From the sequence record NC_049816.1: a stretch of DNA of 51,111 nucleotides; one strand, given 5' to 3'. Positions 1 to 39,655 of the stretch are shown here, in pieces (position 1 is the first letter of the stretch; every line of letters starts with the position of its first letter). The stretch comes from Escherichia phage tunus. The notes under the pieces were generated by a model, which was not told where the DNA came from, made no database searches, and saw nothing but the letters and a program-made list of their open reading frames with translations. The position numbers and the translations under genes were made by a program.

Positions 1-395
<395 letters not shown>

Positions 396-467
396 TCATT
401 CTCCCGTTATCTGGTTGGTGAATTATATCACCAACCATTATAAAAGTTTAGCTATTTGTTTAGTTTG

Positions 468-1523
468 TCACAGATACTGCCTGAATTGAGCACGAACCCA
501 ATCAGGAGTATCAAGATCAATTTCTGGTTGTCCGTTTGCATACGAAGGCCATTCATCTAACTGCTGGCAAACGTTGAACTTGTTGATCACGCTCATGTAC
601 TGGATGCGCCCGATCTTCAATTGCTCAATATTCATGCGGAAAGCAAGCGGCAAGTAAGGCTCTTTCTTCTCCTGCGCAAGCAATCTTACAATTACTGGCC
701 TTTCCTCGTCTGGATACGCCTTTTTGAATAAGTCATGTTGCAAAGCCATTTTAAGATAATAGCCGTGATTGTAAGCCAGGCGCTGGAAGTCAACCGGATT
801 TGCGCTAACCGTTGTTTTGTAGTCAGTGATAATCACCGCTTCTGGATAGGTGACTTCTTCATAAATCGGCCTGCCTTTTTCGTCGTAACCGTTAATGATT
901 GTTGCCTTTACATCCTTGTTTACGTCAACGTGATCAAGACGCACTTTTACTTTTACGCCGTTGATGATCCCAAATATTGACATTTCACGCTGCGCGGTTG
1001 GGCTGTTCATGCAAGCGTTATGCTCCGGTATGGCCTCAAGTACGCGCCGCATCGCTACACAGGCATCATAATCTTTAGCGTCTATTAACTGCACTCCGTC
1101 CGCTGCGGCCTGGCATTCTGCCATCATTTCGATAAGCCACCACACATTGAGATCCTCGCCGCACTTGTACAGCATTTCCAGTAATTCAGGGTATTGTTTA
1201 CCCGTCGTACCTTTCAGGCCAAAAGATTTCAGCTTTGATGCTAACGCCGTTTGGCTAGTGATCAGATCTTTAAAATCATCCTGCGACGGTGCGCGGCGAT
1301 ATGTTTTTTCGAATAGCTCCTTGCTTTCAAAGTTGGTATGCGACTGCGTACCGAAAACAAGTGCTTTAGTTTCCTGGCGCGGCTTGTACTTCCAGTACGC
1401 CGGGCAAGTGCTGTAAATCTCCGCCAGGCTGGAACCGCTGACATATTCAGCCGTCCACGCGTTAGGATCATGATAAAGCTCGTTGCTCATTTCTTCGCTA
1501 GTGTAGGCGTTAAAATCACTCAT
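468..1523 (-). CDS. PD-(D/E)XK exonuclease (RecE/YqaJ-like recombination exonuclease)
   Basis: 351-aa ORF, RBS AAGGAG; IITDYKTT-type PD-(D/E)XK motif; sits directly upstream of erf and ssb in one leftward unit. Confidence 0.65.
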   Translation of the reverse strand: MSDFNAYTSEEMSNELYHDPNAWTAEYVSGSSLAEIYSTCPAYWKYKPRQETKALVFGTQSHTNFESKELFEKTYRRAPSQDDFKDLITSQTALASKLKSFGLKGTTGKQYPELLEMLYKCGEDLNVWWLIEMMAECQAAADGVQLIDAKDYDACVAMRRVLEAIPEHNACMNSPTAQREMSIFGIINGVKVKVRLDHVDVNKDVKATIINGYDEKGRPIYEEVTYPEAVIITDYKTTVSANPVDFQRLAYNHGYYLKMALQHDLFKKAYPDEERPVIVRLLAQEKKEPYLPLAFRMNIEQLKIGRIQYMSVINKFNVCQQLDEWPSYANGQPEIDLDTPDWVRAQFRQYL

Positions 1524-1553
1524 CTTTAATGCTCCTTGTTGCTTTATGCGTGC

Positions 1554-1581
1554 ATTGTAGCCATTTGGTTGATTTAGTCAA
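1554..1581 (-). promoter_or_regulatory. sigma70-type promoter TTGACT-N16-TACAAT for the exonuclease-erf-ssb unit
   Basis: Near-consensus -35 and -10 hexamers about 30 nt upstream of the exonuclease RBS. Confidence 0.45.
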
Positions 1582-1948
1582 TAGCTGTTTTGTTTTTTCT
1601 GTTTTCTAAACGTTCTCAGATGGCAAGAAAACAGATTTGACTCATAAGTTAATGATTAATATGTGTTATTTTTCTTGTTCCCCTGTTCTCTCAGATACGC
1701 CGGATTATATACATACACATGAATGATGGCACATACAGATACTCAGAAAGAAAAATCACCACAAACAACCAAAACCACAAGAAACGCAGACAACAAGAAA
1801 AAACAAATATACATACATAAATAAATAAACTATTGATTTTATATGTATATATCTATTTTATTGATTGTTTATTGATCTTATGTTGTATAAAATTTGCGCT
1901 AAATTTACGCCGCCTTAAATTCGATAACACCGGAAAACAAAAAATAAC

Positions 1949-1993
1949 AAATAGCACTTTTTGCTAAACGCGATGCCCAAGATCGTGTATAGT
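1949..1993 (+). promoter_or_regulatory. Phage promoter module (21-bp box, variant GCTAAAC, + 19-bp spacer + TATAGT)
   Basis: Match to AAATAGCACTTTTTGTTAAAA box, 19-bp spacer, -10 TATAGT; about 30 nt upstream of the 2025 start. Confidence 0.5.
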
Positions 1994-2024
1994 TGAAAAC
2001 AACAACAACTAAGGAGATATAAAG

Positions 2025-2294
2025 ATGAAAAAGTTAATCGCAGTTATCGCCACTGTAGCCGCTCTGACAGGATGCGCAGCGTCGCCTACTGGAAACTTCA
2101 AGGAGATCGATTGCACGGCAAAATTTAACGTTAAAACATTCCCTGTTAACGGATTCCATGAAGTCAAAATTAATGCAGTCCGCGAAAACAGATTCAGCCA
2201 AAAGCAATACAGGTTGAGCGTTGACAATAAAGAAGTTAAATTTATCAACCGTTGGCAAAATGAAAGTAAATTTATTGATTTGAGGTGTAATTAA
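2025..2294 (+). CDS. Small lipoprotein, candidate superinfection-exclusion (Cor/Llp-like) protein
   Basis: 89 aa, RBS AAGGAG; signal peptide MKKLIAVIATVAALTGC with lipobox LTGC. Confidence 0.55.
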   Translation: MKKLIAVIATVAALTGCAASPTGNFKEIDCTAKFNVKTFPVNGFHEVKINAVRENRFSQKQYRLSVDNKEVKFINRWQNESKFIDLRCN

Positions 2295-2572
2295 TGGCGC
2301 AATATGGTTATGCAATATATGACGATCGAGGAAGGGAAGTTACAGGACTTTTAACGCCTGTTTTCTTCCTTGATAAATTCACTCAGCCATCAGGTAGCAA
2401 GACTTACCAAAACAGGCCGCCAGGTAAATCATTGAAAGCAATATATGTTGGCATGAATTCCTGGCGTGGTGGCGACCCTGGCGCACCAAACTTAGGGGTG
2501 AGTGGCGACACCGTTACATGGAGTGGGCTTTCTGGATCTGATTCAAGATATATATATACTTTTTGGGGGTGA
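2294..2572 (+). CDS. Hypothetical protein
   Basis: 92-aa ORF; start overlaps upstream stop (TAATG); no recognisable motif. Confidence 0.4.
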   Translation: MAQYGYAIYDDRGREVTGLLTPVFFLDKFTQPSGSKTYQNRPPGKSLKAIYVGMNSWRGGDPGAPNLGVSGDTVTWSGLSGSDSRYIYTFWG

Positions 2573-2574
2573 TA

Positions 2575-3189
2575 ATGTACGGGATGAGTATAAAAAAATC
2601 AGACGGATCGTTATGGTTAAGTCCAGATTTCACTCCAGTTAATCTAATTGATCGGGCCGTAATATCTGCTAATACCGGAACCGTTTTTACTTCGTCAATT
2701 CCTGTTGATAGGGTATGTTTTTTCTTTGTTAGATTGACCGCTAAATCATACATATCATTCACGCAATTTAACAATGGTGGAAGGCACGCAATAAGACTTG
2801 ATAGATCTGATAATCAGGGTGAGGTTATTGTTTATGCTTTTAGTAATATGGTGACTCCCCCAGGTAGTCACGGCATAGCGTTTTATAATGCTCATGGTGA
2901 AATGGTTTATCATGGAAAAATGAGGCCGCTAGATGCAAAGCAAGTAGGAGTAAGCGGGATCGCATTTGATGTTAACATGGGCTATCCTTGCGCCATAATG
3001 CCATCACTGACAGCATTAAACTCTGTTCCTAATCCGGCTTTAGGTGGATTCATGATTTTTGAGTCTCAAGCTGCCGCGTATGGTAACGGGATCTACTCTT
3101 TTTCTAGGCAGGTTGCACAAACTCCTGGACCTGTTGGTATTTACACCGCTTCATCTGTTTTGGTTATAAATGCATCACACTATGATTAA
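2575..3189 (+). CDS. Hypothetical protein
   Basis: ATG at 2575 preceded by GGGGGT; converges on the J-like gene at a shared terminator. Confidence 0.45.
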   Translation: MYGMSIKKSDGSLWLSPDFTPVNLIDRAVISANTGTVFTSSIPVDRVCFFFVRLTAKSYISFTQFNNGGRHAIRLDRSDNQGEVIVYAFSNMVTPPGSHGIAFYNAHGEMVYHGKMRPLDAKQVGVSGIAFDVNMGYPCAIMPSLTALNSVPNPALGGFMIFESQAAAYGNGIYSFSRQVAQTPGPVGIYTASSVLVINASHYD

Positions 3190-3193
3190 AATT

Positions 3194-3218
3194 AAAGGGG
3201 GCTATGCCCCCTTTTTTT
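3194..3218. terminator. Bidirectional intrinsic terminator
   Basis: GC hairpin GGGGGctatgCCCCC flanked by A-run and T-run between convergent genes. Confidence 0.6.
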
Positions 3219-6200
3219 ACCAGCTTCCGGTAATCCTTCCGACTTCAACCCTCAATACTCCGTTTGCATCTTTTACCTTCAATCCCTCATTGGTGAATTT
3301 AGTAGCTCCTTCTCCTGGCGTTGATCCGTAATTCTCAAAGATTCCGTTTTTATCAAGCCTCCATCCTTGCTGGTTTTGAACAAAGTTGTTTGACTGAATC
3401 ACATTACCAATCATCGCATTAGTGATTGAACCGTTCTTAACCAAAAGACTATTAATGAAAACCTGATTATTCTCAACCACGAAAGGCAAAGTAAAAGTCC
3501 CTCCAGTAGAGCTAGTCATAATGGCGAACCTGTTAGCATCAAACAAAATTTGCGAGATAAGGCCGGATGAACCCTGCGAAAGCTGCATCACCATTCCTGC
3601 GCTGTATTGCTGGCCTTTGTAAGTAAGGCCAAGTTTCATAGCGTATTTAGCGCCAACTGAATCAACGCTCGCCCAAGAATCCAACTTTTCAACCAATGCA
3701 GATTCAACGTCGCCAAATCGTGCTGTTAATGCCTGGTCAGCCTGAACCCTTGCCTCTGTCTCATTGGCGATCGCCTGTTTCACTTCTGAGATGTTAGCCT
3801 CGACTTCTGTTTTGATAACTCCGTCAAGGTCGTTTATCTCTTTCGTGAACTTAGCGTCAAGCTGCTGAACGGCCTGAGCGCGCGCTTCTGACTCGTTAGT
3901 GATTGTCTGCCTTACATCGCTAATGCTTGCAGAAGTATCCTTGCGCACGCCGTCGATTTCTTTTGTGAATTTAGAATCAAGCTGCTGAATTTGAGTCGCT
4001 CGCGTCTCTGATTCAGTGGCAATTGCCTCCTGCACTGTCTTGATGCTTGATGTTATCTCGCCATCAATTGATGCCCTTAACTCTTCGATTTGAGTTACGC
4101 GCGCTTCTGTTTCATTGGCGATAAGCTCAAGAGCATGACCATATTCAGCCTTGCGCTTTCCGTTTTGCACTCGCGTCCACTTCACATCTGCATCATTTGC
4201 CAACGCGTTCTGTATGATTGATTGTGCCTGGTCTTTGATTTTATTGGCGCTGTCTATGGCGTTCTCTTTGATTTCTTGACCAGCTTCTGTATCAAAAATC
4301 TTGTCCAGAATGTCGCCCAAAACAGATTCAACATCATCTGACGCCATACCGCGAACAAAGTCAGTCCAACTGGAAACGTTGCCTATTCTGTCAACGCTGC
4401 GGATTCTATACCATACAACTTGCCCCGCTGGTAACGTGCTATGCCAATACTCATATTGAGGATATGGAATCAGCGTAAGCAGACTTGAGTTTTCAACCGT
4501 TCCGTCTGGCGATTGGTGAAGCTCAATGTAAGCCGTATCGCCTGATCCTTCCGGCATACCCCATTTGACACGAATGCCAAAAACTTCATTATCAGAAGCC
4601 GTAAGATTAATCGGCGCTCCTGGCTCGCCAACTTTACCTGTCAGAGTGGCGGTTGCAATCTTTGACCACGGGGAAGCGTTACCGCTTGCAGAAACGGATC
4701 TCACCCTTACTTGGTAGTTGCCTGAATAAATCCCTTCTACCTCTATCTCTTTGTTAGCGGTCTGCGGCGTATTCAGCCAGTTACCATCACCTTTTCGCCA
4801 CTGCATTTCATAAAGCGATGCGTAAGGAACCTTATCCCATGAAACAACCATAGTCTCAACGCTAACGCCCTGCACGACGCGAGAATAAGATGAGATCTTA
4901 ACGTTCTCAGGCGCTGCCATCACGTCAGGCTGAACAATTGAAGTCGGCCTGTCATCAATGTTTACGCCATAATCAATCTCGTCGTATTTGTTCGGATCGT
5001 ACTCCACAGCCGTGATTGAATAGGTAAACTCGTTTTCGTCATCACCCTTGCTGATAGTTGTCACAACGTATTGCTGCAACGCAAGATCAGTACGGTCAAT
5101 CGCAAAAACAGTATCAGGCTTAACATCAAAACCAAATCCAATATTTAACTCTATGGTTTTTCCGTCTGCGCTAACCTTTGAGATCGTGCGCTTAACTGGC
5201 TTGCCGTCCGGCTTGTTGATGATAATAAAATCACCAGGGCGAGCATCAACCTTAAACGGAACGAAAACCTGCAATCCTGAAACTTCCATTACTCGGCCCG
5301 ATAGGTTTAACGTTAGGTTGCTACTCTGAAAATTATCAGCGATAGCAATAACATCACCTATTGATGGAATCATCCCCTCTAGTCCGGTAGCAAAGTTTAC
5401 AGTAGTGCTTCTAAGGTTTGTTTTCAAAACCCACCGACCGCGACGATTCGCTTCGCTCCTGCGTGTGCACCCGATCGCTGTAATGCTTGTTGGATTGTAT
5501 CCAAATCGTAATGCCGCCTCAGTATCAAAAACACCCTCTACGTCCTGCTGATACATGTTTTGTTCGTCGTCAAACGTCACGTTACACTGCGTGTACATGC
5601 TTTTTTCGCTTGCGGTTGTGTACTGAAAATCACCGTTGATGACGTTTTCATTAGTAAACACGTATGATGGATCGCGTGGCTTATCAATCACGATTGATAA
5701 GCTCTCACCATTCCAAAAACTCATTCCGCGAAAGATTGAGCAAATGTCACGGATTAGCTGATAAGCCTCAACTTGATTCTGAATCACCACATCGCATAGG
5801 TAGCGAGGCTCAGTACCGCCCTTACCGTCTGGAACTTTCTGATCACAGTAAACGCCCGCCTCGTATAAGCTCCACTTGTCGATCTGTATTCCTAACTCTC
5901 GCTGATCAAGTCCATAACGCTGATTTGTCACCAGATCATAAAGAACCCAAGCGGGATTATTTGACCACGCTTTTTTAAAAGTCCCATCCCATGACCCGTG
6001 ATATTCTCTTGATATTGGATCATAGTTGCTTGGCACATTAATAATCTTCCATTTCTTTTTTATAGAAATGTTAGGGATTTGCGTAGGAAACAATTCACTG
6101 TCAAATTCTACGAATACAAGGCCAGTCAGAGGATAACGGAATTTTGCATCAACAACCTCAGCGTAACTTTGCAGCTTGATTTTATCAGTTACCTTTGAAG

Positions 6201-6795
6201 ATGTGCTGTCTGGAGTCAGTCGCTTTACTCGGATTAAAACGCGCTCATCAAACTTAGGAAGATCAATCCTTCTGCTGCGGTCGTATCCTGATCTTGTCTT
6301 GCCGTCAATTACATCTCTCATAACCTCGCTATAAGAACCGCCATCAATAGCCATATCTACGGCATACTCAACCCTTACGCCAACAAGATCGCCGTTATCC
6401 TCCTGTTTTATGCCTACTGGCATCAGGATCTTTATTCTTACCGCAGATAGATTTTTATTTGTAACAGAAATAACATAAGGATTGTCTCCGGTAATATCTC
6501 TTGCAACTGTCACCTCACTTGATGTGTCAGTAAAACCCTGGATGTAATCTTGCGTCTGCGTACCCGGTCGATATTCAGCCGTAACTCCCTCGTAGTTAAC
6601 AGTGCCATCGCTGGCAATAACCGGAACATCATCAAGATAAAGATCGCGCAACGTGAAATCTGGATCGCACTCGCCATCAGATACAGCCAGCAAAACTTTA
6701 ATCTTGTTTATCGAGATCAGGTTATCTTCCATCTCTTTTGGCACGTATGGCTTTTTGCTTCCGCCCTTACTGCCGCTTATCATATATTTAGCCAT
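3217..6795 (-). CDS. Central tail fibre / host specificity protein (lambda J-like)
   Basis: About 1190 aa; N-terminus ISGSKGGSKKPYVPKE resembles the lambda J start; fibronectin-like middle; last gene of tail module after I/K/L/M. Confidence 0.85.
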   Translation of the reverse strand: MAKYMISGSKGGSKKPYVPKEMEDNLISINKIKVLLAVSDGECDPDFTLRDLYLDDVPVIASDGTVNYEGVTAEYRPGTQTQDYIQGFTDTSSEVTVARDITGDNPYVISVTNKNLSAVRIKILMPVGIKQEDNGDLVGVRVEYAVDMAIDGGSYSEVMRDVIDGKTRSGYDRSRRIDLPKFDERVLIRVKRLTPDSTSSKVTDKIKLQSYAEVVDAKFRYPLTGLVFVEFDSELFPTQIPNISIKKKWKIINVPSNYDPISREYHGSWDGTFKKAWSNNPAWVLYDLVTNQRYGLDQRELGIQIDKWSLYEAGVYCDQKVPDGKGGTEPRYLCDVVIQNQVEAYQLIRDICSIFRGMSFWNGESLSIVIDKPRDPSYVFTNENVINGDFQYTTASEKSMYTQCNVTFDDEQNMYQQDVEGVFDTEAALRFGYNPTSITAIGCTRRSEANRRGRWVLKTNLRSTTVNFATGLEGMIPSIGDVIAIADNFQSSNLTLNLSGRVMEVSGLQVFVPFKVDARPGDFIIINKPDGKPVKRTISKVSADGKTIELNIGFGFDVKPDTVFAIDRTDLALQQYVVTTISKGDDENEFTYSITAVEYDPNKYDEIDYGVNIDDRPTSIVQPDVMAAPENVKISSYSRVVQGVSVETMVVSWDKVPYASLYEMQWRKGDGNWLNTPQTANKEIEVEGIYSGNYQVRVRSVSASGNASPWSKIATATLTGKVGEPGAPINLTASDNEVFGIRVKWGMPEGSGDTAYIELHQSPDGTVENSSLLTLIPYPQYEYWHSTLPAGQVVWYRIRSVDRIGNVSSWTDFVRGMASDDVESVLGDILDKIFDTEAGQEIKENAIDSANKIKDQAQSIIQNALANDADVKWTRVQNGKRKAEYGHALELIANETEARVTQIEELRASIDGEITSSIKTVQEAIATESETRATQIQQLDSKFTKEIDGVRKDTSASISDVRQTITNESEARAQAVQQLDAKFTKEINDLDGVIKTEVEANISEVKQAIANETEARVQADQALTARFGDVESALVEKLDSWASVDSVGAKYAMKLGLTYKGQQYSAGMVMQLSQGSSGLISQILFDANRFAIMTSSTGGTFTLPFVVENNQVFINSLLVKNGSITNAMIGNVIQSNNFVQNQQGWRLDKNGIFENYGSTPGEGATKFTNEGLKVKDANGVLRVEVGRITGSW

Positions 6796-6843
6796 GACTT
6801 TTAACCTTTTGTGCTGTTTCTTGGTTTGCACATTATAAATGCA

Positions 6844-6877
6844 CAAAAAAACCCGCGCAAGGCGGGTATTTTTTTAT
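6844..6877. terminator. Intrinsic terminator-like hairpin (bidirectional)
   Basis: ACCCGCcttgcGCGGGT hairpin with flanking A and T runs; TTTATAAT -10-like element follows on the minus strand. Confidence 0.5.
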
Positions 6878-7470
6878 GCTTTATCTTCTGCGTAGCTGCC
6901 AGCCGACCAGATTGCGCCGCCTACTGTCCTATATCCATATGGCAAAGGAACCGGATAACCTGCCGCCGTGGTATTTACAGCACCGCCGAAAGCGTAAGAA
7001 GGCTTATTTTCTGCTGATTGGCTTTGCAGTTTCATTCCTCCCTGCTGCGGCGAGATCATTTGCATGACACCGCCAAGCGCGATAGCACCACCCATCATAA
7101 ATGCGGAAGATGCAAAAGCGCCCATAGCAGCAAGACTTGCACCACCAGTAAAGAACGCAGTGGCCATAATTGCAGCGCCAAGAACAACATTAAACAGGCC
7201 GCCGGACTTAGAACCAGTTGGAACGGGAACTATTCGAACCTCTCGCGCGCACTTCCATGATTTTTCATCATGCTGACCAACGTTTTTACCGTCAACGAAT
7301 ACAGCGTACTTCATGCGCGATCCTACTTCGCTTTGCATGTAGTCTTTGAACCCTTCAACCTGGGAAGATAACGCACGTATTGCTTCGGGGTATGAGTCAA
7401 CCGCCATTTTGTGAAAGACGCCAAATCTACGCCCCAGGGAACCAGATAGCTTAATTACTTTCAATGTCAT
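6874..7470 (-). CDS. Tail assembly protein (lambda I-like)
   Basis: 198 aa; C-terminal Gly/Ala-rich hydrophobic segment typical of gpI; position between K and J. Confidence 0.7.
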   Translation of the reverse strand: MTLKVIKLSGSLGRRFGVFHKMAVDSYPEAIRALSSQVEGFKDYMQSEVGSRMKYAVFVDGKNVGQHDEKSWKCAREVRIVPVPTGSKSGGLFNVVLGAAIMATAFFTGGASLAAMGAFASSAFMMGGAIALGGVMQMISPQQGGMKLQSQSAENKPSYAFGGAVNTTAAGYPVPLPYGYRTVGGAIWSAGSYAEDKA

Positions 7471-8182
7471 ATTTCAGATCCTTATGTCGACAAATTTTTA
7501 CAGTGTGCTCCTGATACCATCCAGAATACAAGTCGATGCGAGATAGCTTTCCAAACGCATGATGTAATAGCTGGTTGTTACCCAAATAAATTCCCGCATG
7601 ATTCCAGACTGGTGATGATAGTTGCATAATCACCATATCACCAGGTTTTGGAGGCTCGTTAGTTTCAACAAATCCCTCTTTCAAATAATTATCCTGGTAA
7701 AGATTTTCACCATATTCTGACTTCCACCACTCGTAAGGCTTTCGGAAGTCATTCAATACTACTCCGTGCTGTTTATGCCATGCCATGATAAGACCCCAGC
7801 AATCGAACGACCCCAGCGACCACGGGCGACCGATAAGCGGCCTCTCCTGCGGCTCGACAATTCTCATATCACCTTCGGGCCATGACACTATAATCCACGA
7901 CACACCCATTTCATCGCACATACATGAGTCGTGCGCGCTCGGTATCGTACTAGCACCATCCCCGCAATGGGAATGCACCACCGCGATTAATTCGCCTTTG
8001 TCGAGCGATTCAGCGTATTCTACGGCGTCCATTTCAAAGTGATTTTCTGGATCGTCATGCACGTTGGTTATGCGGTGATATTTCTGTACCCGTGACTTTT
8101 GAGTTATGACGCCGCAAGCCTCTTTAGGGTATTCCTCTTTAACGTGCTGCATTATTTCAAGTTTAATTTTTGCACTAATCAT
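7451..8182 (-). CDS. Tail protein (lambda K-like) with MPN/JAMM and NlpC/P60 domains
   Basis: ATG at 8182 with RBS GGAGGA, overlapping the L stop; JAMM motif HSHCGDGASTIPSAHD; NlpC/P60-like Cys and His residues. Confidence 0.8.
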   Translation of the reverse strand: MISAKIKLEIMQHVKEEYPKEACGVITQKSRVQKYHRITNVHDDPENHFEMDAVEYAESLDKGELIAVVHSHCGDGASTIPSAHDSCMCDEMGVSWIIVSWPEGDMRIVEPQERPLIGRPWSLGSFDCWGLIMAWHKQHGVVLNDFRKPYEWWKSEYGENLYQDNYLKEGFVETNEPPKPGDMVIMQLSSPVWNHAGIYLGNNQLLHHAFGKLSRIDLYSGWYQEHTVKICRHKDLKYDIESN

Positions 8183-30440: not shown

Positions 30441-30636
30441 TAACCCCTTTCACATAAATAACCGTTTAATCTTTGGTGACGGGCTTCACTTCGTCGGTAG
30501 CCTCAGCTCAGTGACCTATCTAGCGTTCTGCCTGGTGGCGAGTGTGATAGTTCTGGCCTCACGGTTGGGAATCCTGACACTTCGATCAAGCCCCTGCGTT
30601 ACTCCTCTCCCGCAGCAATCCTTGCCGCCCGTCTAT
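30441..30636 (-). ncRNA. Candidate structured RNA / cis-regulatory leader (about 195 nt, GC-rich, no ORF)
   Basis: Lies between a promoter module and the 30440 start; no start-codon-initiated ORF on the transcribed strand; possible closing helix GACGGGC...GCCCGUC and internal hairpins. Confidence 0.3.
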
Positions 30637-30642
30637 GTGTGT

Positions 30643-30688
30643 ATTATGCCTGGTTATCGCTTTTGAGTTTTAACAAAAAGTGCTATTT
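30643..30688 (-). promoter_or_regulatory. Phage promoter module (box + 19-bp spacer + CATAAT)
   Basis: Exact box AAATAGCACTTTTTGTTAAAA on minus strand. Confidence 0.5.
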
Positions 30689-30872
30689 AGAATTTTACCT
30701 CTTCCACAAGCTCAACCATCTTGTAACCAAGACGATAAGAGTCACCGAACAACAAGATCCCCATAAATTCATCGTGGCTTATTGACTCTTTGCCAACCGT
30801 TCTAAGCTCGCCGTTGTGAATCACAGTATCGCCGATCTTGATTTCTGATTTATGGACTAATTTCGTTTTCAT
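30687..30872 (-). CDS. Hypothetical protein
   Basis: 61-aa ORF with weak Shine-Dalgarno GGGTGA. Confidence 0.4.
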   Translation of the reverse strand: MKTKLVHKSEIKIGDTVIHNGELRTVGKESISHDEFMGILLFGDSYRLGYKMVELVEEVKF

Positions 30873-30887
30873 TTATTCACCCGCTAA

Positions 30888-31073
30888 TTAAAAGAACGCT
30901 ACATAGTTTGCAATGCCTTTGGCGTCGTCGTTTGGCATTGCTTTTACAGCCAGGTCATAACCTGCCTCTACCTTCTGCTTTGCTGTTTCTTCGTTGTAGC
31001 CCCAGATAACCAGGATTTTAACTACGTTTTCTTTGTTCAGGACTTTAAGGTCTTTGGTGATGCGACGTGCCAT
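30888..31073 (-). CDS. Hypothetical protein
   Basis: 61 aa, RBS GAGGAAAC. Confidence 0.4.
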   Translation of the reverse strand: MARRITKDLKVLNKENVVKILVIWGYNEETAKQKVEAGYDLAVKAMPNDDAKGIANYVAFF

Positions 31074-31104
31074 TTTTGTTTCCTCAATCTCGTTTCGATG
31101 AGGC

Positions 31105-31150
31105 TATTATGCCAGGCTTCGCGCCTGGCGTTTTAACAAAAAGTGCTATT
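31105..31150 (-). promoter_or_regulatory. Phage promoter module (box + 19-bp hairpin spacer + CATAAT)
   Basis: Exact box; spacer palindrome CGCCAGGCgcgaaGCCTGGC; transcript would begin near CATCGAAACGAG. Confidence 0.5.
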
Positions 31151-31418
31151 TTGTCTCGACGGTCATATGTTCTGTCTTCGTGCCTTTGCCATTGCTTTTC
31201 GACACTTCCCAGCTAGTAGCGCCCTTGCAGTTGGTGAAGTAAACAGTGCGATCGTCATAGAATCGGTAAACGGTGCAACCGTCAGCGGTGAATAGCTCCC
31301 TTACGCTGTAGTCATCGCCAGGGTTAGCCATCTGCACATTGCCAACATGCGCGCCATCTTCTTTGCATCCGGTCAGGAATGCCATTGCCGCCAAAACGCT
31401 GATTAATGCCTTTTTCAT
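31146..31418 (-). CDS. Small lipoprotein, second candidate exclusion / surface lipoprotein
   Basis: 90 aa, RBS AAGAGGAAG; signal peptide MKKALISVLAAMAFLTGC with lipobox. Confidence 0.55.
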   Translation of the reverse strand: MKKALISVLAAMAFLTGCKEDGAHVGNVQMANPGDDYSVRELFTADGCTVYRFYDDRTVYFTNCKGATSWEVSKSNGKGTKTEHMTVETK

Positions 31419-31879
31419 TGCTCTTCCTCTTTGATGATTTCGCGGATCATATCCTGGTAGCGGCTTACGCCCTCACAAGCTCCAGCCAGTTTATCCCCTT
31501 CCAGGTCAACGATATTCGGGATTGCTGCCAGTATGCGATCGGCAAACTTTTTGATCGCCCTTGCCTTGATGGCTGGCAATTCTTCGGGTGTGATGATTTT
31601 CCTTTTCGATTCGCGGACCATGCGGAAAACGTAAAATTTATCATCTTCCGTTTCCTCTACCTTGATGCTTACCCGACCTGCGGCCCTTACTTCTGGAACG
31701 CGGTTGATAATGGTCCGGCTGTAGGATGAACTGCGCGTGATCTTGTAGCAGTCGTCACCGCTTAACATTCCGGCCAGGTCAATTAGTGACATTTTATACT
31801 CTTCAATATCGCCACTAGCCAGGCGGCGACCAAGCTCGCGAAGCCAATCGCAATAGTCCTTAGTGGTCTTCTGTTCCAT
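31415..31879 (-). CDS. Hypothetical early protein (first gene of leftward early unit)
   Basis: ATG at 31879 with RBS GGAGGAAAGG; the track's upstream ATG overlaps the promoter -10. Confidence 0.5.
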   Translation of the reverse strand: MEQKTTKDYCDWLRELGRRLASGDIEEYKMSLIDLAGMLSGDDCYKITRSSSYSRTIINRVPEVRAAGRVSIKVEETEDDKFYVFRMVRESKRKIITPEELPAIKARAIKKFADRILAAIPNIVDLEGDKLAGACEGVSRYQDMIREIIKEEEQ

Positions 31880-31910
31880 TTCCTTTCCTCCAGTTGTTGA
31901 CTGTTGGCGC

Positions 31911-31939
31911 ATTATAAAAGCTATTTGGTGCGTGTCAAT
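31911..31939 (-). promoter_or_regulatory. sigma70-type early promoter TTGACA-N17-TATAAT (leftward)
   Basis: Consensus hexamers; resembles the promoter at 1554-1581. Confidence 0.55.
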
Positions 31940-32374
31940 GTTTTTGTTGTATTCAAAACGTTACCAATATCGAAAAACTACAAAATCATGCGCAAGTTAT
32001 TGATTTCGCGGCTGTTATTTTTCTGTTCACTCTGTTAACGCAATCCGCCGGAAAAAGTATATATACATATGCAATCCGCCGCGCGCGCAACTATCCATAT
32101 ATACCCACACACAACCACACCATAACCAACAAAAAGCACTGTAACAGTGAGAACAAAAAGAAAACATTATAGATATATATAAATAAATAATCTTTATTTT
32201 CAATGTATTATAGAGGATTTTCTTTGTTTTTTCCGTTTTCGCTACACCGGAAAACCGCGCGGAAACACGCCGCCTGAAATCGGTAACAGGGGTGAACAAA
32301 AGACAACAACCACTGACAGCCAGGCGGAAAAGTGAGGCAAGAGGGGAAGGTTTCACTATCTCCCCTGCAACCAA

Positions 32375-32463
32375 TGATTAAACGTGATTACTTTTCTCAT
32401 CAAATTTGCAAAGGCAATCATCATTTTGACGTGATTTGATTACGAATGATTACTTTTGATTAT
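32375..32463. repeat. Phased GATTA(C) direct repeats (iteron-like)
   Basis: Five TGATTA/GATTAC copies at about 32376, 32386, 32438, 32448, 32458, the last three exactly 10 bp apart, just upstream of the rightward promoter module. Confidence 0.45.
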
Positions 32464-32491
32464 TTCGATCGCAATCCTGGCGATAACCGTC

Positions 32492-32537
32492 AAATAGCAC
32501 TTTTTGTTAAAACTCAGGCCACCTGATCGGGTACATT
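32492..32537 (+). promoter_or_regulatory. Phage promoter module (box + 19-bp spacer + TACATT)
   Basis: Exact box; transcript would start near the conserved CATCGAAACGAACC. Confidence 0.5.
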
Positions 32538-32577
32538 ACACACATCGAAACGAACCGCACTTACTGAGGACCAAACA

Positions 32578-32880
32578 ATGATTAACATGAACCTGTTCAC
32601 CGCTAAAGACCACGAGAATATGGCAGCACTGGCTGACCTGTTCGAAACAGCAGAAATGGCTGAACTGTTCATGACTGAGCATGAATTCCAGGACGGCATC
32701 AGCAATGCCATTGAAACAAATTTTGGCGACGCTCGCGTTACTGGTGCAATGTTTGCAAATATCGCGCGTAAATTCTTCCAGGCTTACCGCGACGCTCGCC
32801 ATGTAAAGGGCACGTTTGGATCTGCGAAAGACACCGCTGAAACTATCCGCGCTTACATTGAGCGCCACGCAAAACAATAA
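32578..32880 (+). CDS. Hypothetical acidic early protein (first gene of rightward early unit)
   Basis: 100-aa ORF with weak Shine-Dalgarno GAGGAC; Asp/Glu-rich N-terminal half. Confidence 0.5.
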   Translation: MINMNLFTAKDHENMAALADLFETAEMAELFMTEHEFQDGISNAIETNFGDARVTGAMFANIARKFFQAYRDARHVKGTFGSAKDTAETIRAYIERHAKQ

Positions 32881-39245: not shown

Positions 39246-39280
39246 AAATAAAGGAGGCATTAAGCCTCCTTTTTCTTTTC
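39244..39280. terminator. Bidirectional intrinsic terminator between convergent units
   Basis: AGGAGGCattaaGCCTCCT with A-run upstream and T-run downstream; overlaps the spanin 3' end. Confidence 0.6.
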
Positions 39281-39655
39281 TATCCAGTAAAGACAAATCA
39301 GCACAAGAAACACAACCACGCATATGATTACTGGATCGTACCATCTGCCGTTATTACCCTGCACGACCTGAATTTTGTCTGCCTTGATGGTATTGGCCTG
39401 AATGGTTGATGTTGTGAAATCCTTCTTGCTGGACGTGTCCACCTTGTCAACCGCAGATTCCTTTATTGTGGTTTCCTGTTTTGTGCTGGCGTCCTGCTTT
39501 GCTGTAATGCCAACTGTCTGCTTCACGTTCTCCGCTCCAGCCTGTGCTGTGATTTCCGGCTTACTGCCGATTAATCCGGTCAGTGGCGTAACGCTTGAAC
39601 ATCCAGACAAGATCACCGCCATTGCGATTGGTGTAAGTAAAAAATTCTTCATCAT
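39260..39655 (-). CDS. Unimolecular spanin (lipoprotein with C-terminal transmembrane anchor)
   Basis: Signal peptide with lipobox LSGC, periplasmic Lys/Thr-rich region, C-terminal TMD; last gene of lysis cassette. Confidence 0.7.

What the first reader, a model, noticed from the sequence alone, without database searches (positions are those of the whole stretch)
2025..3189. Lipoprotein plus two unknown genes converging on the J-like fibre gene; second lipoprotein at 31146..31418
Two small lipoproteins with a classic LTGC lipobox are encoded at opposite ends of the early regions. Phage lipoproteins of this size often block the phage's own receptor (Cor/Llp-like exclusion). The first is followed by two ORFs of unknown function (2294..2572, 2575..3189) sharing a terminator with the receptor-binding J-like gene.
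Basis: inference. Interest (0 to 1): 0.5.

Follow-up and report, generated by a model that had tools for sequence, protein, structure and literature searches.

The report
BtuB receptor-binding cassette with exclusion lipoprotein
The three genes next to the tail-tip gene of this T1-like coliphage are the already described swappable host-recognition cassette, here the version for the vitamin B12 transporter BtuB with its probable receptor-blocking lipoprotein, while the second lipoprotein is an unrelated, uncharacterised early protein.

Summary
All four ORFs, both LTGC lipoboxes and the shared hairpin terminator are at the stated coordinates.

The window is a Warwickvirus (Drexlerviridae), 99.6% identical to SECphi27 and tunus. 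The three genes at 2025..3189 are the known "bona fide RBP locus" downstream of gpJ, in its BtuB allele. They are 98.5-99% identical to FritzSarasin/Bas04. The 204-aa protein is 100% identical to that of JK16. Both phages use BtuB by experiment.

The first lipoprotein travels with this allele and has the Cor/Llp layout. Its mature part has no significant sequence match to Cor, and the fold match to Llp is weak. Blocking of BtuB from the periplasm is therefore likely but untested.

The second lipoprotein (DUF4884) does not track the receptor allele and occurs in phages of several genera. It lies behind a perfect consensus early promoter, and its function is unknown.

Overall the locus is ordinary and already explained.

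The parts
1949..1968 (+). Copy of a phage-wide 20-nt motif (AAATAGCACTTTTTGCTAAA). A TATAGT hexamer follows at 1988..1993. This is the probable promoter or regulatory element of the lipoprotein-ORF92-ORF204 operon.
   Evidence: The motif has 20 copies in the window against 0.03 expected by chance, and its orientation follows gene orientation. Most copies are followed after 19-21 nt by a TATAAT-like hexamer. It is also present in T1 and KarlJaspers. Promoter function is inferred.
2025..2294 (+). Outer-membrane lipoprotein, 89 aa (72-73 aa mature). Probable superinfection-exclusion or lytic-conversion protein that inactivates BtuB.
2294..2572 (+). 92-aa partner of the RBP. Homologue of T1 gp32 and N15 gp22, and probably an adaptor or assembly partner at the tail tip.
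   Evidence: PHROG 557 at 4e-20. hhalign to T1 ST32 / Bas05 g23 gives 91.8% probability, E 7e-7. It is always adjacent to the 204-aa gene, including in JenP2 and 933W. It has no signal peptide or TM segment. The family is small: 19 clusters among 1.84 billion representatives.
2575..3189 (+). 204-aa receptor-binding protein, BtuB-specific allele.
3194..3214 (.). Bidirectional intrinsic terminator shared by the cassette and the J-like gene.
   Evidence: The stem has 9 pairs, 6 of them G-C, with a 3-nt loop and dG -15.7 kcal/mol. A T-run follows on the + strand.
3217..6795 (-). J-like central tail fibre / tail-tip hub (1192 aa) that carries the separately encoded RBP.
   Evidence: Pfam FNIII-A_GpJ, Phage-tail_3 and Phage_Tail_Tip. 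It is 67% identical to T1 gp33 and 96% to the J of the FhuA phage PeterMerian. Divergence from PeterMerian is concentrated in the last ~50 aa.
31146..31418 (-). Second lipoprotein, DUF4884 family, 90 aa. Second gene of an early operon. Function unknown and not tied to the receptor allele.
   Evidence: Pfam PF16225 scores 31.9 bits against a cut-off of 30. Invariant residues are C18, C48 and C64, and the core reads DGCTVYRFYDDRTVYFTNC. Homologues occur in BtuB, FhuA and LptD Drexlerviridae and in phages of other genera; T1 has none. There is no homology to Cor or to lipoprotein 1.
31911..31938 (-). Perfect consensus sigma-70 promoter (TTGACA-16-TATAAT) driving the operon that contains lipoprotein 2.
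   Evidence: It matches 12 of 12 positions and is the only such site in 30600..32700. It implies that the upstream ORF starts at the ATG at 31879, not at 31912.

Best explanation
Genes 2025..3189 are the exchangeable host-recognition cassette of a T1-like (Warwickvirus) phage, in the allele specific for the TonB-dependent vitamin B12 transporter BtuB.

The 204-aa protein is the receptor-binding protein. With the 92-aa partner it is mounted non-covalently on the tip of the J-like central fibre. It binds the extracellular face of BtuB to trigger irreversible adsorption.

The lipoprotein encoded first in the same operon is exported, lipidated and sorted to the inner leaflet of the outer membrane. 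There it most likely binds the periplasmic face or plug of BtuB and locks the receptor in a state the RBP cannot bind. This would exclude superinfecting BtuB phages and stop progeny being lost on debris, as T5 Llp and T1 Cor do for FhuA and Rtp45 does for LptD.

What is shown: gene structure, allele identity with BtuB-dependent phages, the RBP fold, homology to T1 gp31/gp32, and modular exchange.

What is inferred: physical binding to BtuB, the role of the 92-aa protein, and the exclusion activity and its mechanism.

The second lipoprotein (31146..31418) is a separate matter. It is an early-expressed DUF4884 envelope lipoprotein of unknown target that is not part of this receptor system.
For: Allele identity:
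- The three proteins are 98.9, 98.9 and 98.5% identical to bas04_0025/24/23, and 56, 72 and 64% identical to the same three-gene convergent cassette of Bas06.
- Bas04 and Bas06 use BtuB (Maffei 2021 S5 Table; RB-TnSeq in the 2026 preprint).
- JK16, whose 204-aa protein is 100% identical, is also BtuB-dependent.

Contrast within the genus:
- PeterMerian/Bas05 has a 96% identical J but uses FhuA. It carries the T1-type cassette instead.
- DNA homology between the window and PeterMerian breaks exactly at 2079..3214.

RBP fold and homology:
- hhalign gives 95.5% and 91.8% probability to T1 gp31 and gp32.
- The termini are conserved and the internal and C-terminal-half segments are variable.

Lipoprotein:
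- The lipobox and two further cysteines, at mature positions 14 and 72, are invariant. This parallels the Llp Cys11-Cys58 bond that is shared with Cor (PMC9586334).
- JenP2 and 933W carry the RBP pair without the lipoprotein, so it is not needed to make the RBP.

Literature:
- Maffei 2021 (PMC8594841), the BASEL completion paper (PMC11990801), bioRxiv 10.64898/2026.04.02.716166 and the KanT1 paper (PMC13164509) describe this locus type and propose cognate exclusion lipoproteins.
Against: - No experiment on this lipoprotein family was found in the searched literature.
- Its mature part has no significant sequence similarity to Cor: PHROG with no hit at E<=1, the NCBIfam cor model at 19.2 bits against a cut-off of 31, and hhalign at 4.4% probability.
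- The lipoprotein is co-transcribed with the RBP genes. In T1 cor is on the opposite strand to the RBP genes, and in T5 (own knowledge) llp is expressed separately from the RBP gene. Its timing may therefore differ.
- Which of the two non-lipoproteins contacts BtuB rests on a fold match and on published AlphaFold3 models (ipTM 0.47 for Bas04, 0.82 for Bas06), not on binding data.
Confidence: 0.72

Rival explanations
1. All three proteins form a membrane-located superinfection-exclusion system. The 92-aa and 204-aa proteins would be an 'outer membrane protein' and a 'membrane-associated protein' that help the lipoprotein. This follows the PHROG/RefSeq labels and was assumed for the T1/KanT1 homologues.
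For: PHROG 557 and 425 carry those labels. The KanT1 paper assumes a role in exclusion because the genes are linked to cor.
Confidence: 0.06
2. Lipoprotein 1 is not a receptor blocker. It has another envelope role, such as helping lysis or release, or protecting against colicins or other phages through a target other than BtuB.
For: There is no significant sequence homology of the mature part to Cor or Llp. The structural match is weak. It is co-transcribed with structural genes.
Against: It is strictly linked with the BtuB-type RBP allele, and Cor replaces it at the same position and orientation in FhuA-type relatives; the recombination junction lies inside the signal-peptide codons. Its size, lipobox and terminal cysteine pattern match Llp/Cor. 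The phage already has a u-spanin for lysis.
Confidence: 0.15
3. Lipoprotein 2 (DUF4884) is a second Cor/Llp-like blocker of this phage's own receptor.
For: It is a small lipoprotein with a classic lipobox and conserved cysteines, behind a strong early promoter. Early expression would suit exclusion.
Against: Homologues occur regardless of receptor: Bas04 and Bas06 (BtuB), Bas05 (FhuA), Rtp and JeanPiccard (LptD), and in Serratia, Erwinia, Pantoea, Pseudomonas and Xanthomonas phages. Bas04 has a 99% identical RBP cassette but only a 47% identical lipoprotein 2. T1 lacks it. It has no homology to Cor or lipoprotein 1 and is 28 kb from the RBP genes.
Confidence: 0.05

Closest known systems
BtuB-type 'bona fide RBP locus' of Drexlerviridae and related small siphoviruses (FritzSarasin/Bas04, KarlJaspers/Bas06, JK16, PTXU06; Maffei et al. 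2021; bioRxiv 10.64898/2026.04.02.716166)
   Same: It has the same three genes in the same order, convergent with gpJ. Identity is 98.5-100% to Bas04 and JK16 and 54-72% to Bas06 and PTXU06.
   Different: Essentially nothing; this window is a member of that group. The literature infers but has not tested the role of the lipoprotein and of the 92-aa protein.
T1 / N15 / phi80 FhuA cassette: gp32 (N15 gp22), gp31 (N15 gp23) and Cor
   Same: It has the same parts: a small (~100 aa) plus a large (~200-230 aa) beta protein and a small lipoprotein, lying between gpJ and recE. The two non-lipoproteins are true distant homologues (hhalign 91.8% and 95.5%). The lipoprotein gene sits at the same place and in the same orientation.
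   Different: The receptor is FhuA rather than BtuB. In T1 the RBP pair is on the J strand and only cor is convergent; here all three genes form one convergent operon. The mature lipoprotein is 14 residues longer and has no detectable sequence homology to Cor.
T5 Llp (PDB 8A60) and Rtp45 (LptDE-Rtp45 cryo-EM): exclusion lipoproteins acting from the periplasmic side
   Same: Each is a small lipidated protein encoded beside the RBP gene. Llp has a disulphide linking the two ends of the mature chain, and lipoprotein 1 has invariant cysteines in matching positions. BtuB is a TonB-dependent transporter like FhuA, for which plug-jamming 'reverse allostery' was shown.
Oekolampad (Bas18) RBP bound to LptDE (PDB 9RPT chain C)
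   Different: Identity is only 16%. Its length is 254 aa (309 aa for Rtp44) against 204 aa here, and its receptor is LptD.

Membership tests
Small-siphovirus RBP locus downstream of gpJ (Maffei 2021) | Located directly downstream of the gpJ homologue, between gpJ and the recombination genes | tested here: met
   The cassette at 2025..3189 lies between the J-like gene (3217..6795, -) and recE (468..1523, -).
Small-siphovirus RBP locus downstream of gpJ (Maffei 2021) | Allele matches that of phages whose terminal receptor was determined by experiment | tested here: met
   Identity is 98.5-99% to Bas04, 100% (204-aa protein) to JK16 and 56-72% to Bas06, all BtuB phages. FhuA phages T1 and Bas05 carry a different allele.
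Small-siphovirus RBP locus downstream of gpJ (Maffei 2021) | The locus is exchanged as a module independently of the rest of the genome | tested here: met
   DNA homology to PeterMerian (same genus, FhuA) covers 3..2078 and 3215..8000 but not 2079..3214. The same cassette is present in the Dhillonvirus PTXU06.
Small-siphovirus RBP locus downstream of gpJ (Maffei 2021) | The encoded RBP has the fold of a solved RBP of this locus type | tested here: met
Small-siphovirus RBP locus downstream of gpJ (Maffei 2021) | The RBP physically binds the receptor (BtuB) | not testable with these tools
   This needs binding assays or a complex structure. The only published evidence found is AlphaFold3 models.
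T1 gp31/gp32 - N15 gp23/gp22 proteins (PHROG 425 / 557) | Sequence homology of both proteins | tested here: met
   PHROG 425 at 1.8e-49 and PHROG 557 at 4.3e-20. hhalign gives 95.5% and 91.8%. Pairwise BLAST is only marginal.
T1 gp31/gp32 - N15 gp23/gp22 proteins (PHROG 425 / 557) | Membrane location, as the database names imply | tested here: not met
   There is no signal peptide and no TM-like segment. The predicted fold is all-beta and matches a soluble RBP.
Cor / Llp exclusion lipoproteins | Signal peptidase II signal with lipobox and an outer-membrane sorting residue at +2 | tested here: met
   The lipobox is LTGC followed by Ala. G16 and C17 are invariant in the family.
Cor / Llp exclusion lipoproteins | Small mature chain with one cysteine near each end (Llp Cys11-Cys58 disulphide, shared with Cor) | tested here: met
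   The mature chain is 72-73 aa, with invariant cysteines at mature positions 14 and 72. The bond itself was not tested.
Cor / Llp exclusion lipoproteins | Significant sequence match of the mature protein to the Cor models | tested here: not met
   The full-length PHROG 1119 match (8e-8) disappears without the signal peptide. NCBIfam NF047972 scores 19.2 bits against a cut-off of 31. hhalign on mature parts gives 4.4%.
Cor / Llp exclusion lipoproteins | Fold like Llp (PDB 8A60 chain B) | tested here: inconclusive
Cor / Llp exclusion lipoproteins | Encoded next to the cognate RBP gene and co-varying with receptor specificity | tested here: met
   It is the first gene of the RBP operon. It is present with the BtuB-type RBP in all six loci examined and is replaced by Cor in the FhuA loci.
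Cor / Llp exclusion lipoproteins | Expression abolishes receptor function and phage adsorption | not testable with these tools
   This needs expression in E. coli followed by plating, colicin and B12 assays.
DUF4884 (PF16225), for lipoprotein 2 | Score at or above the Pfam gathering threshold | tested here: met
   It scores 31.9 bits against a cut-off of 30, E 1.1e-7. 19 of 20 homologous clusters carry PF16225.
Cor / Llp exclusion lipoproteins, for lipoprotein 2 | Adjacency to the RBP gene, co-variation with the receptor, and homology to Cor | tested here: not met
   It is 28 kb from the RBP genes. It is present in BtuB, FhuA and LptD phages and in other genera. hhalign gives 0.3% to Cor and 0.1% to lipoprotein 1.

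The most novel reading that the evidence does not exclude
The DUF4884 lipoprotein at 31146..31418 may be a new kind of phage envelope effector. It is expressed at once from a perfect consensus promoter. It is conserved in phages of at least six Gram-negative genera whatever receptor they use. Among near-identical Warwickviruses it diverges to about 45-58% identity. It could act on a conserved outer-membrane machine or envelope component, for example as a receptor-independent exclusion or anti-defence factor, rather than on the phage's own receptor.
Probability: 0.2. Interest if true: 0.55.

Novelty: already known. Interest (0 to 1): 0.25.

Why it matters
The practical value is that the terminal receptor of this phage can be read from its sequence: it is BtuB. 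[quoted passage not shown]

Two smaller points go slightly beyond the literature read here:
- The cassette is exchanged with one junction inside the lipoprotein signal-peptide codons. This explains why annotation pipelines call this lipoprotein "Cor".

If the lipoprotein does block BtuB, it would extend the Llp-type jamming mechanism to a second TonB-dependent transporter. It would also predict cross-protection against BF23-like phages and E colicins.

The DUF4884 lipoprotein remains an open question.

Tried and rejected
- Direct sequence searches of lipoprotein 1 and its family profile against PDB sequences found nothing meaningful; Llp was not found. A Cor profile against PDB also missed Llp, so sequence methods cannot link these lipoprotein families.
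- Foldseek of the lipoprotein 1 model against PDB gave no hit better than E 0.9.
- I tested whether the 92-aa protein is a paralogue of a domain of the 204-aa protein. Only a 14-residue motif (YG-A-Y-D/N-xx-G) aligns, at 8.7% hhalign probability, so this was rejected.
- I looked for a receptor-specific signature in the last 50 residues of J. The window and Bas04 agree, but Bas06 (also BtuB) looks more like the FhuA phages, so no clean signature emerged from this small sample.
- A standard sigma-70 scan found no convincing promoter upstream of lipoprotein 1. The 20-nt motif is the better candidate.
- The DUF4884 profile hits designed 'Cake' beta-propellers (E 1.5e-10). Each repeat scores only about 4 bits, so the total comes from adding many weak repeat matches. 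It hints at most at a propeller-blade-like hairpin.
- No paper on DUF4884 function, on the JenP2 receptor or on the 20-nt motif was found.
It was rerun with alignment A2.
- The Sp5 morphogenesis paper does not mention the homologues of the RBP pair.

Full report
**What is there**

The window is a complete T1-like phage genome. The region 1700..3400 is 99.6-99.7% identical to Escherichia phages tunus, EC195 and SECphi27 (Drexlerviridae, Tempevirinae, Warwickvirus).

- A lipoprotein at 2025..2294 (+).
- A 92-aa ORF at 2294..2572 (+).
- A 204-aa ORF at 2575..3189 (+).
- A second lipoprotein at 31146..31418 (-).

The three + strand genes are tightly packed (TAATG overlap, then a 2-nt gap). Each has a Shine-Dalgarno sequence, so they form one operon. 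This operon converges on the J-like gene (3217..6795, -). A strong hairpin at 3194..3214 fills the 27-nt gap between them.

In a six-frame scan only these two ORFs fit a lipoprotein signal pattern. The u-spanin (39260..39655, -) is a third lipobox protein.

**What the cassette is**

The literature already describes this locus type. Maffei et al. 2021 (PMC8594841) matched allelic variants of a "bona fide RBP locus" directly downstream of gpJ to each terminal receptor of Drexlerviridae, together with cognate exclusion proteins. A 2026 preprint confirmed this with genome-wide screens.

The window's three proteins are 98.9, 98.9 and 98.5% identical to bas04_0025/24/23 of FritzSarasin. FritzSarasin's terminal receptor is BtuB (S5 Table). 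In RB-TnSeq its top host genes are btuB, sdaC and dcrB. The 204-aa protein is 100% identical in JK16, which is also BtuB-dependent.

KarlJaspers/Bas06 is another BtuB phage, in a different genus. It has the same convergent three-gene layout at 56, 72 and 64% identity. The Dhillonvirus PTXU06 has it too.

PeterMerian/Bas05 is in the same genus as the window, with a 96% identical J, yet it uses FhuA. It carries the T1 layout instead: J, then gp32-like and gp31-like genes on the same strand, with cor opposite. DNA homology between the window and PeterMerian covers 3..2078 and 3215..8000 and is absent only from 2079..3214. One exchange junction therefore lies just after the signal-peptide codons of the lipoprotein gene, and the other lies at the terminator and 3' end of J.

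**The two "unknown" genes**

PHROGs places the two proteins in families 557 and 425. The RefSeq T1 record labels T1 ST32 and ST31 with the names of those families.

Pairwise BLAST to T1 is marginal. Profile comparison supports homology: 95.5% probability (E 1.5e-8, 149 columns) for the large protein and 91.8% (E 7e-7) for the small one.

The 204-aa protein is therefore the RBP. The BtuB, FhuA and LptD RBPs look like diverged relatives, although the preprint calls the families unrelated.

Within the BtuB family both termini are nearly invariant (MYGMxIxxxDGSLWLSPDFTPxNLI... and ...LVINASKYD). Internal and C-terminal-half segments vary. This fits a conserved attachment surface and a variable receptor surface, but that reading is an inference.

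Neither protein has a signal peptide or a membrane segment. [quoted passage not shown]

The 92-aa protein always accompanies the RBP, including in JenP2 and in short-tailed Stx phages such as 933W. Its exact role as adaptor or assembly partner is not known.

**The first lipoprotein**

The family is small: 12 clusters in 5.8 billion sequences. Invariant residues are the lipobox Gly-Cys and two further cysteines at mature positions 14 and 72. Position +2 is never Asp, so outer-membrane sorting is expected.

This parallels T5 Llp, whose Cys11-Cys58 bond ties the two ends of the chain and is shared with Cor (PMC9586334).

The apparent "Cor" annotation is weak on inspection:
- The PHROG 1119 match (8e-8) vanishes when the signal peptide is removed.
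- The NCBIfam cor model scores below its cut-off.
- A profile comparison of the mature parts is not significant.

The junction in the signal-peptide codons explains the spurious full-length match.

The strongest arguments for an exclusion role are contextual:
- The gene occupies the same place and orientation as cor.
- It is swapped together with the RBP.
- It is absent where the RBP pair occurs in other phage types, so it is not an assembly factor.

BtuB is a TonB-dependent transporter like FhuA. The plug-jamming, loop-closing mechanism shown for Llp was proposed to be general for such transporters. The KanT1 paper independently noted Cor-like proteins in BtuB phages. I put exclusion through BtuB at about 0.7.

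**Expression**

No standard promoter precedes the lipoprotein gene. A 20-nt motif (AAATAGCACTTTTTGYTAAA) lies at 1949..1968, with TATAGT 19 nt downstream. This motif occurs 20 times in the genome against 0.03 expected. It is oriented with the genes and usually followed by a TATAAT-like hexamer. It is conserved in T1 and KarlJaspers.

The cassette is therefore probably transcribed from this phage-wide element. The exclusion lipoprotein and the RBP would then be made together, unlike in T1, where cor and the RBP genes lie on opposite strands.

**The second lipoprotein**

It belongs to Pfam DUF4884. Its conserved core is DGCTVYRFYDDRTVYFTNC, with invariant cysteines.

It is the second gene of an operon behind a perfect TTGACA-16-TATAAT promoter.

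Homologues at 41-47% identity are present in BtuB (Bas04, Bas06), FhuA (Bas05) and LptD (Rtp, JeanPiccard) phages. They also occur in phages of Serratia, Erwinia, Pantoea, Pseudomonas and Xanthomonas and in a 124-kb phage-like contig among small early genes. T1 has none.

Bas04 shares a 99% identical RBP cassette with the window but only a 47% identical copy of this protein. There is no homology to Cor or to lipoprotein 1, and only two incidental mentions of the family appear in the literature.

It is thus not a blocker of the phage's own receptor. Its target is unknown.

**Verdict**

The locus is a known kind and a near-identical copy of characterised phages, so novelty is low.

Noticed in passing
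window 1949..1968 and 19 further sites (e.g. 25323, 28128, 30669, 31132, 32492, 32879, 34184, 36102, 42185, 43234): A 20-nt motif, AAATAGCACTTTTTGTTAAA, occurs 20 times (up to 3 mismatches) against 0.03 expected. It is co-oriented with the genes. Most copies are followed after 19-21 nt by a TATAAT-like hexamer, and the spacer is often a G+C-rich inverted repeat. The spacing from its TTGTTA to the -10-like hexamer (21-22 nt) is too long for a standard sigma-70 promoter. It is conserved in T1 (7 exact copies) and KarlJaspers (10 exact copies). No description was found in the searched literature.
   Followed up: partly
window 31911..31938 (-) and 31415..31912 (-): A perfect consensus sigma-70 promoter overlaps the 5' end of the 165-aa ORF. 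The real start of that gene is probably the ATG at 31879 (MEQKTT..., 154 aa).
   Followed up: partly
window 39260..39655 (-): A third lipobox protein is present: the u-spanin ([19 protein letters not shown]... with a C-terminal TM segment). It is 80% identical over the aligned region to the KarlJaspers u-spanin and follows the endolysin gene.
   Followed up: yes
L007 (933W) 4714..5618; L008 (JenP2) 3717..4615: The 92-aa and 204-aa pair occurs at 42-50% identity without any lipoprotein in two other settings. One is short-tailed Stx phages (933W, VT2-Sakai and about 100 Stx records), between tail-fibre genes and lom. The other is the Nonagvirus JenP2, convergent with J. The annotated 933W small ORF appears to be truncated at its 5' end. 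The receptor these versions bind is not known to me.
   Followed up: partly
window 2079..3214 versus L006 (PeterMerian): The exchange junction of the receptor cassette lies inside the lipoprotein gene, directly after the signal-peptide codons. The BtuB-type and FhuA-type lipoproteins therefore share a signal peptide at the DNA level but have unrelated mature parts.
   Followed up: yes
window 2294..2340, 2575..2620 and 2869..2910: A short motif (YG-x-A/S-x-Y/W-D/N-xx-G-xx-V/L) recurs at the N-terminus of the 92-aa protein, the N-terminus of the 204-aa protein and residues 99-112 of the 204-aa protein. It also recurs in the T1 and Bas05 homologues. The proteins are not otherwise alignable.
   Followed up: partly
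phage records MG065636, MG065643, MG065649, MG065680, MG065681, MG065685: Records labelled 'Campylobacter phage' (~50 kb) carry the same T1-like cassette and the DUF4884 lipoprotein at 37-64% identity. They look like T1-like coliphages and are possibly mislabelled.
   Followed up: no
supplement of bioRxiv 10.64898/2026.04.02.716166: In RB-TnSeq, the BtuB-type phages Bas04 and Bas06 also depend on the inner-membrane proteins SdaC and DcrB. The passages seen for FhuA-type relatives list tonB for Bas03, and fhuA and dcrB around Bas05. By homology the same dependence on SdaC and DcrB is expected for this phage.
   Followed up: no
window 31146..31418 (-), core residues 46..64: The DUF4884 core gives many weak (~4 bit) repeat matches to designed 'Cake' beta-propellers, and a sub-threshold match to Pfam Lipoprotein_15. 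It may resemble a single propeller-blade hairpin. The summed E-value comes from adding many weak repeat matches and is not meaningful.
   Followed up: partly
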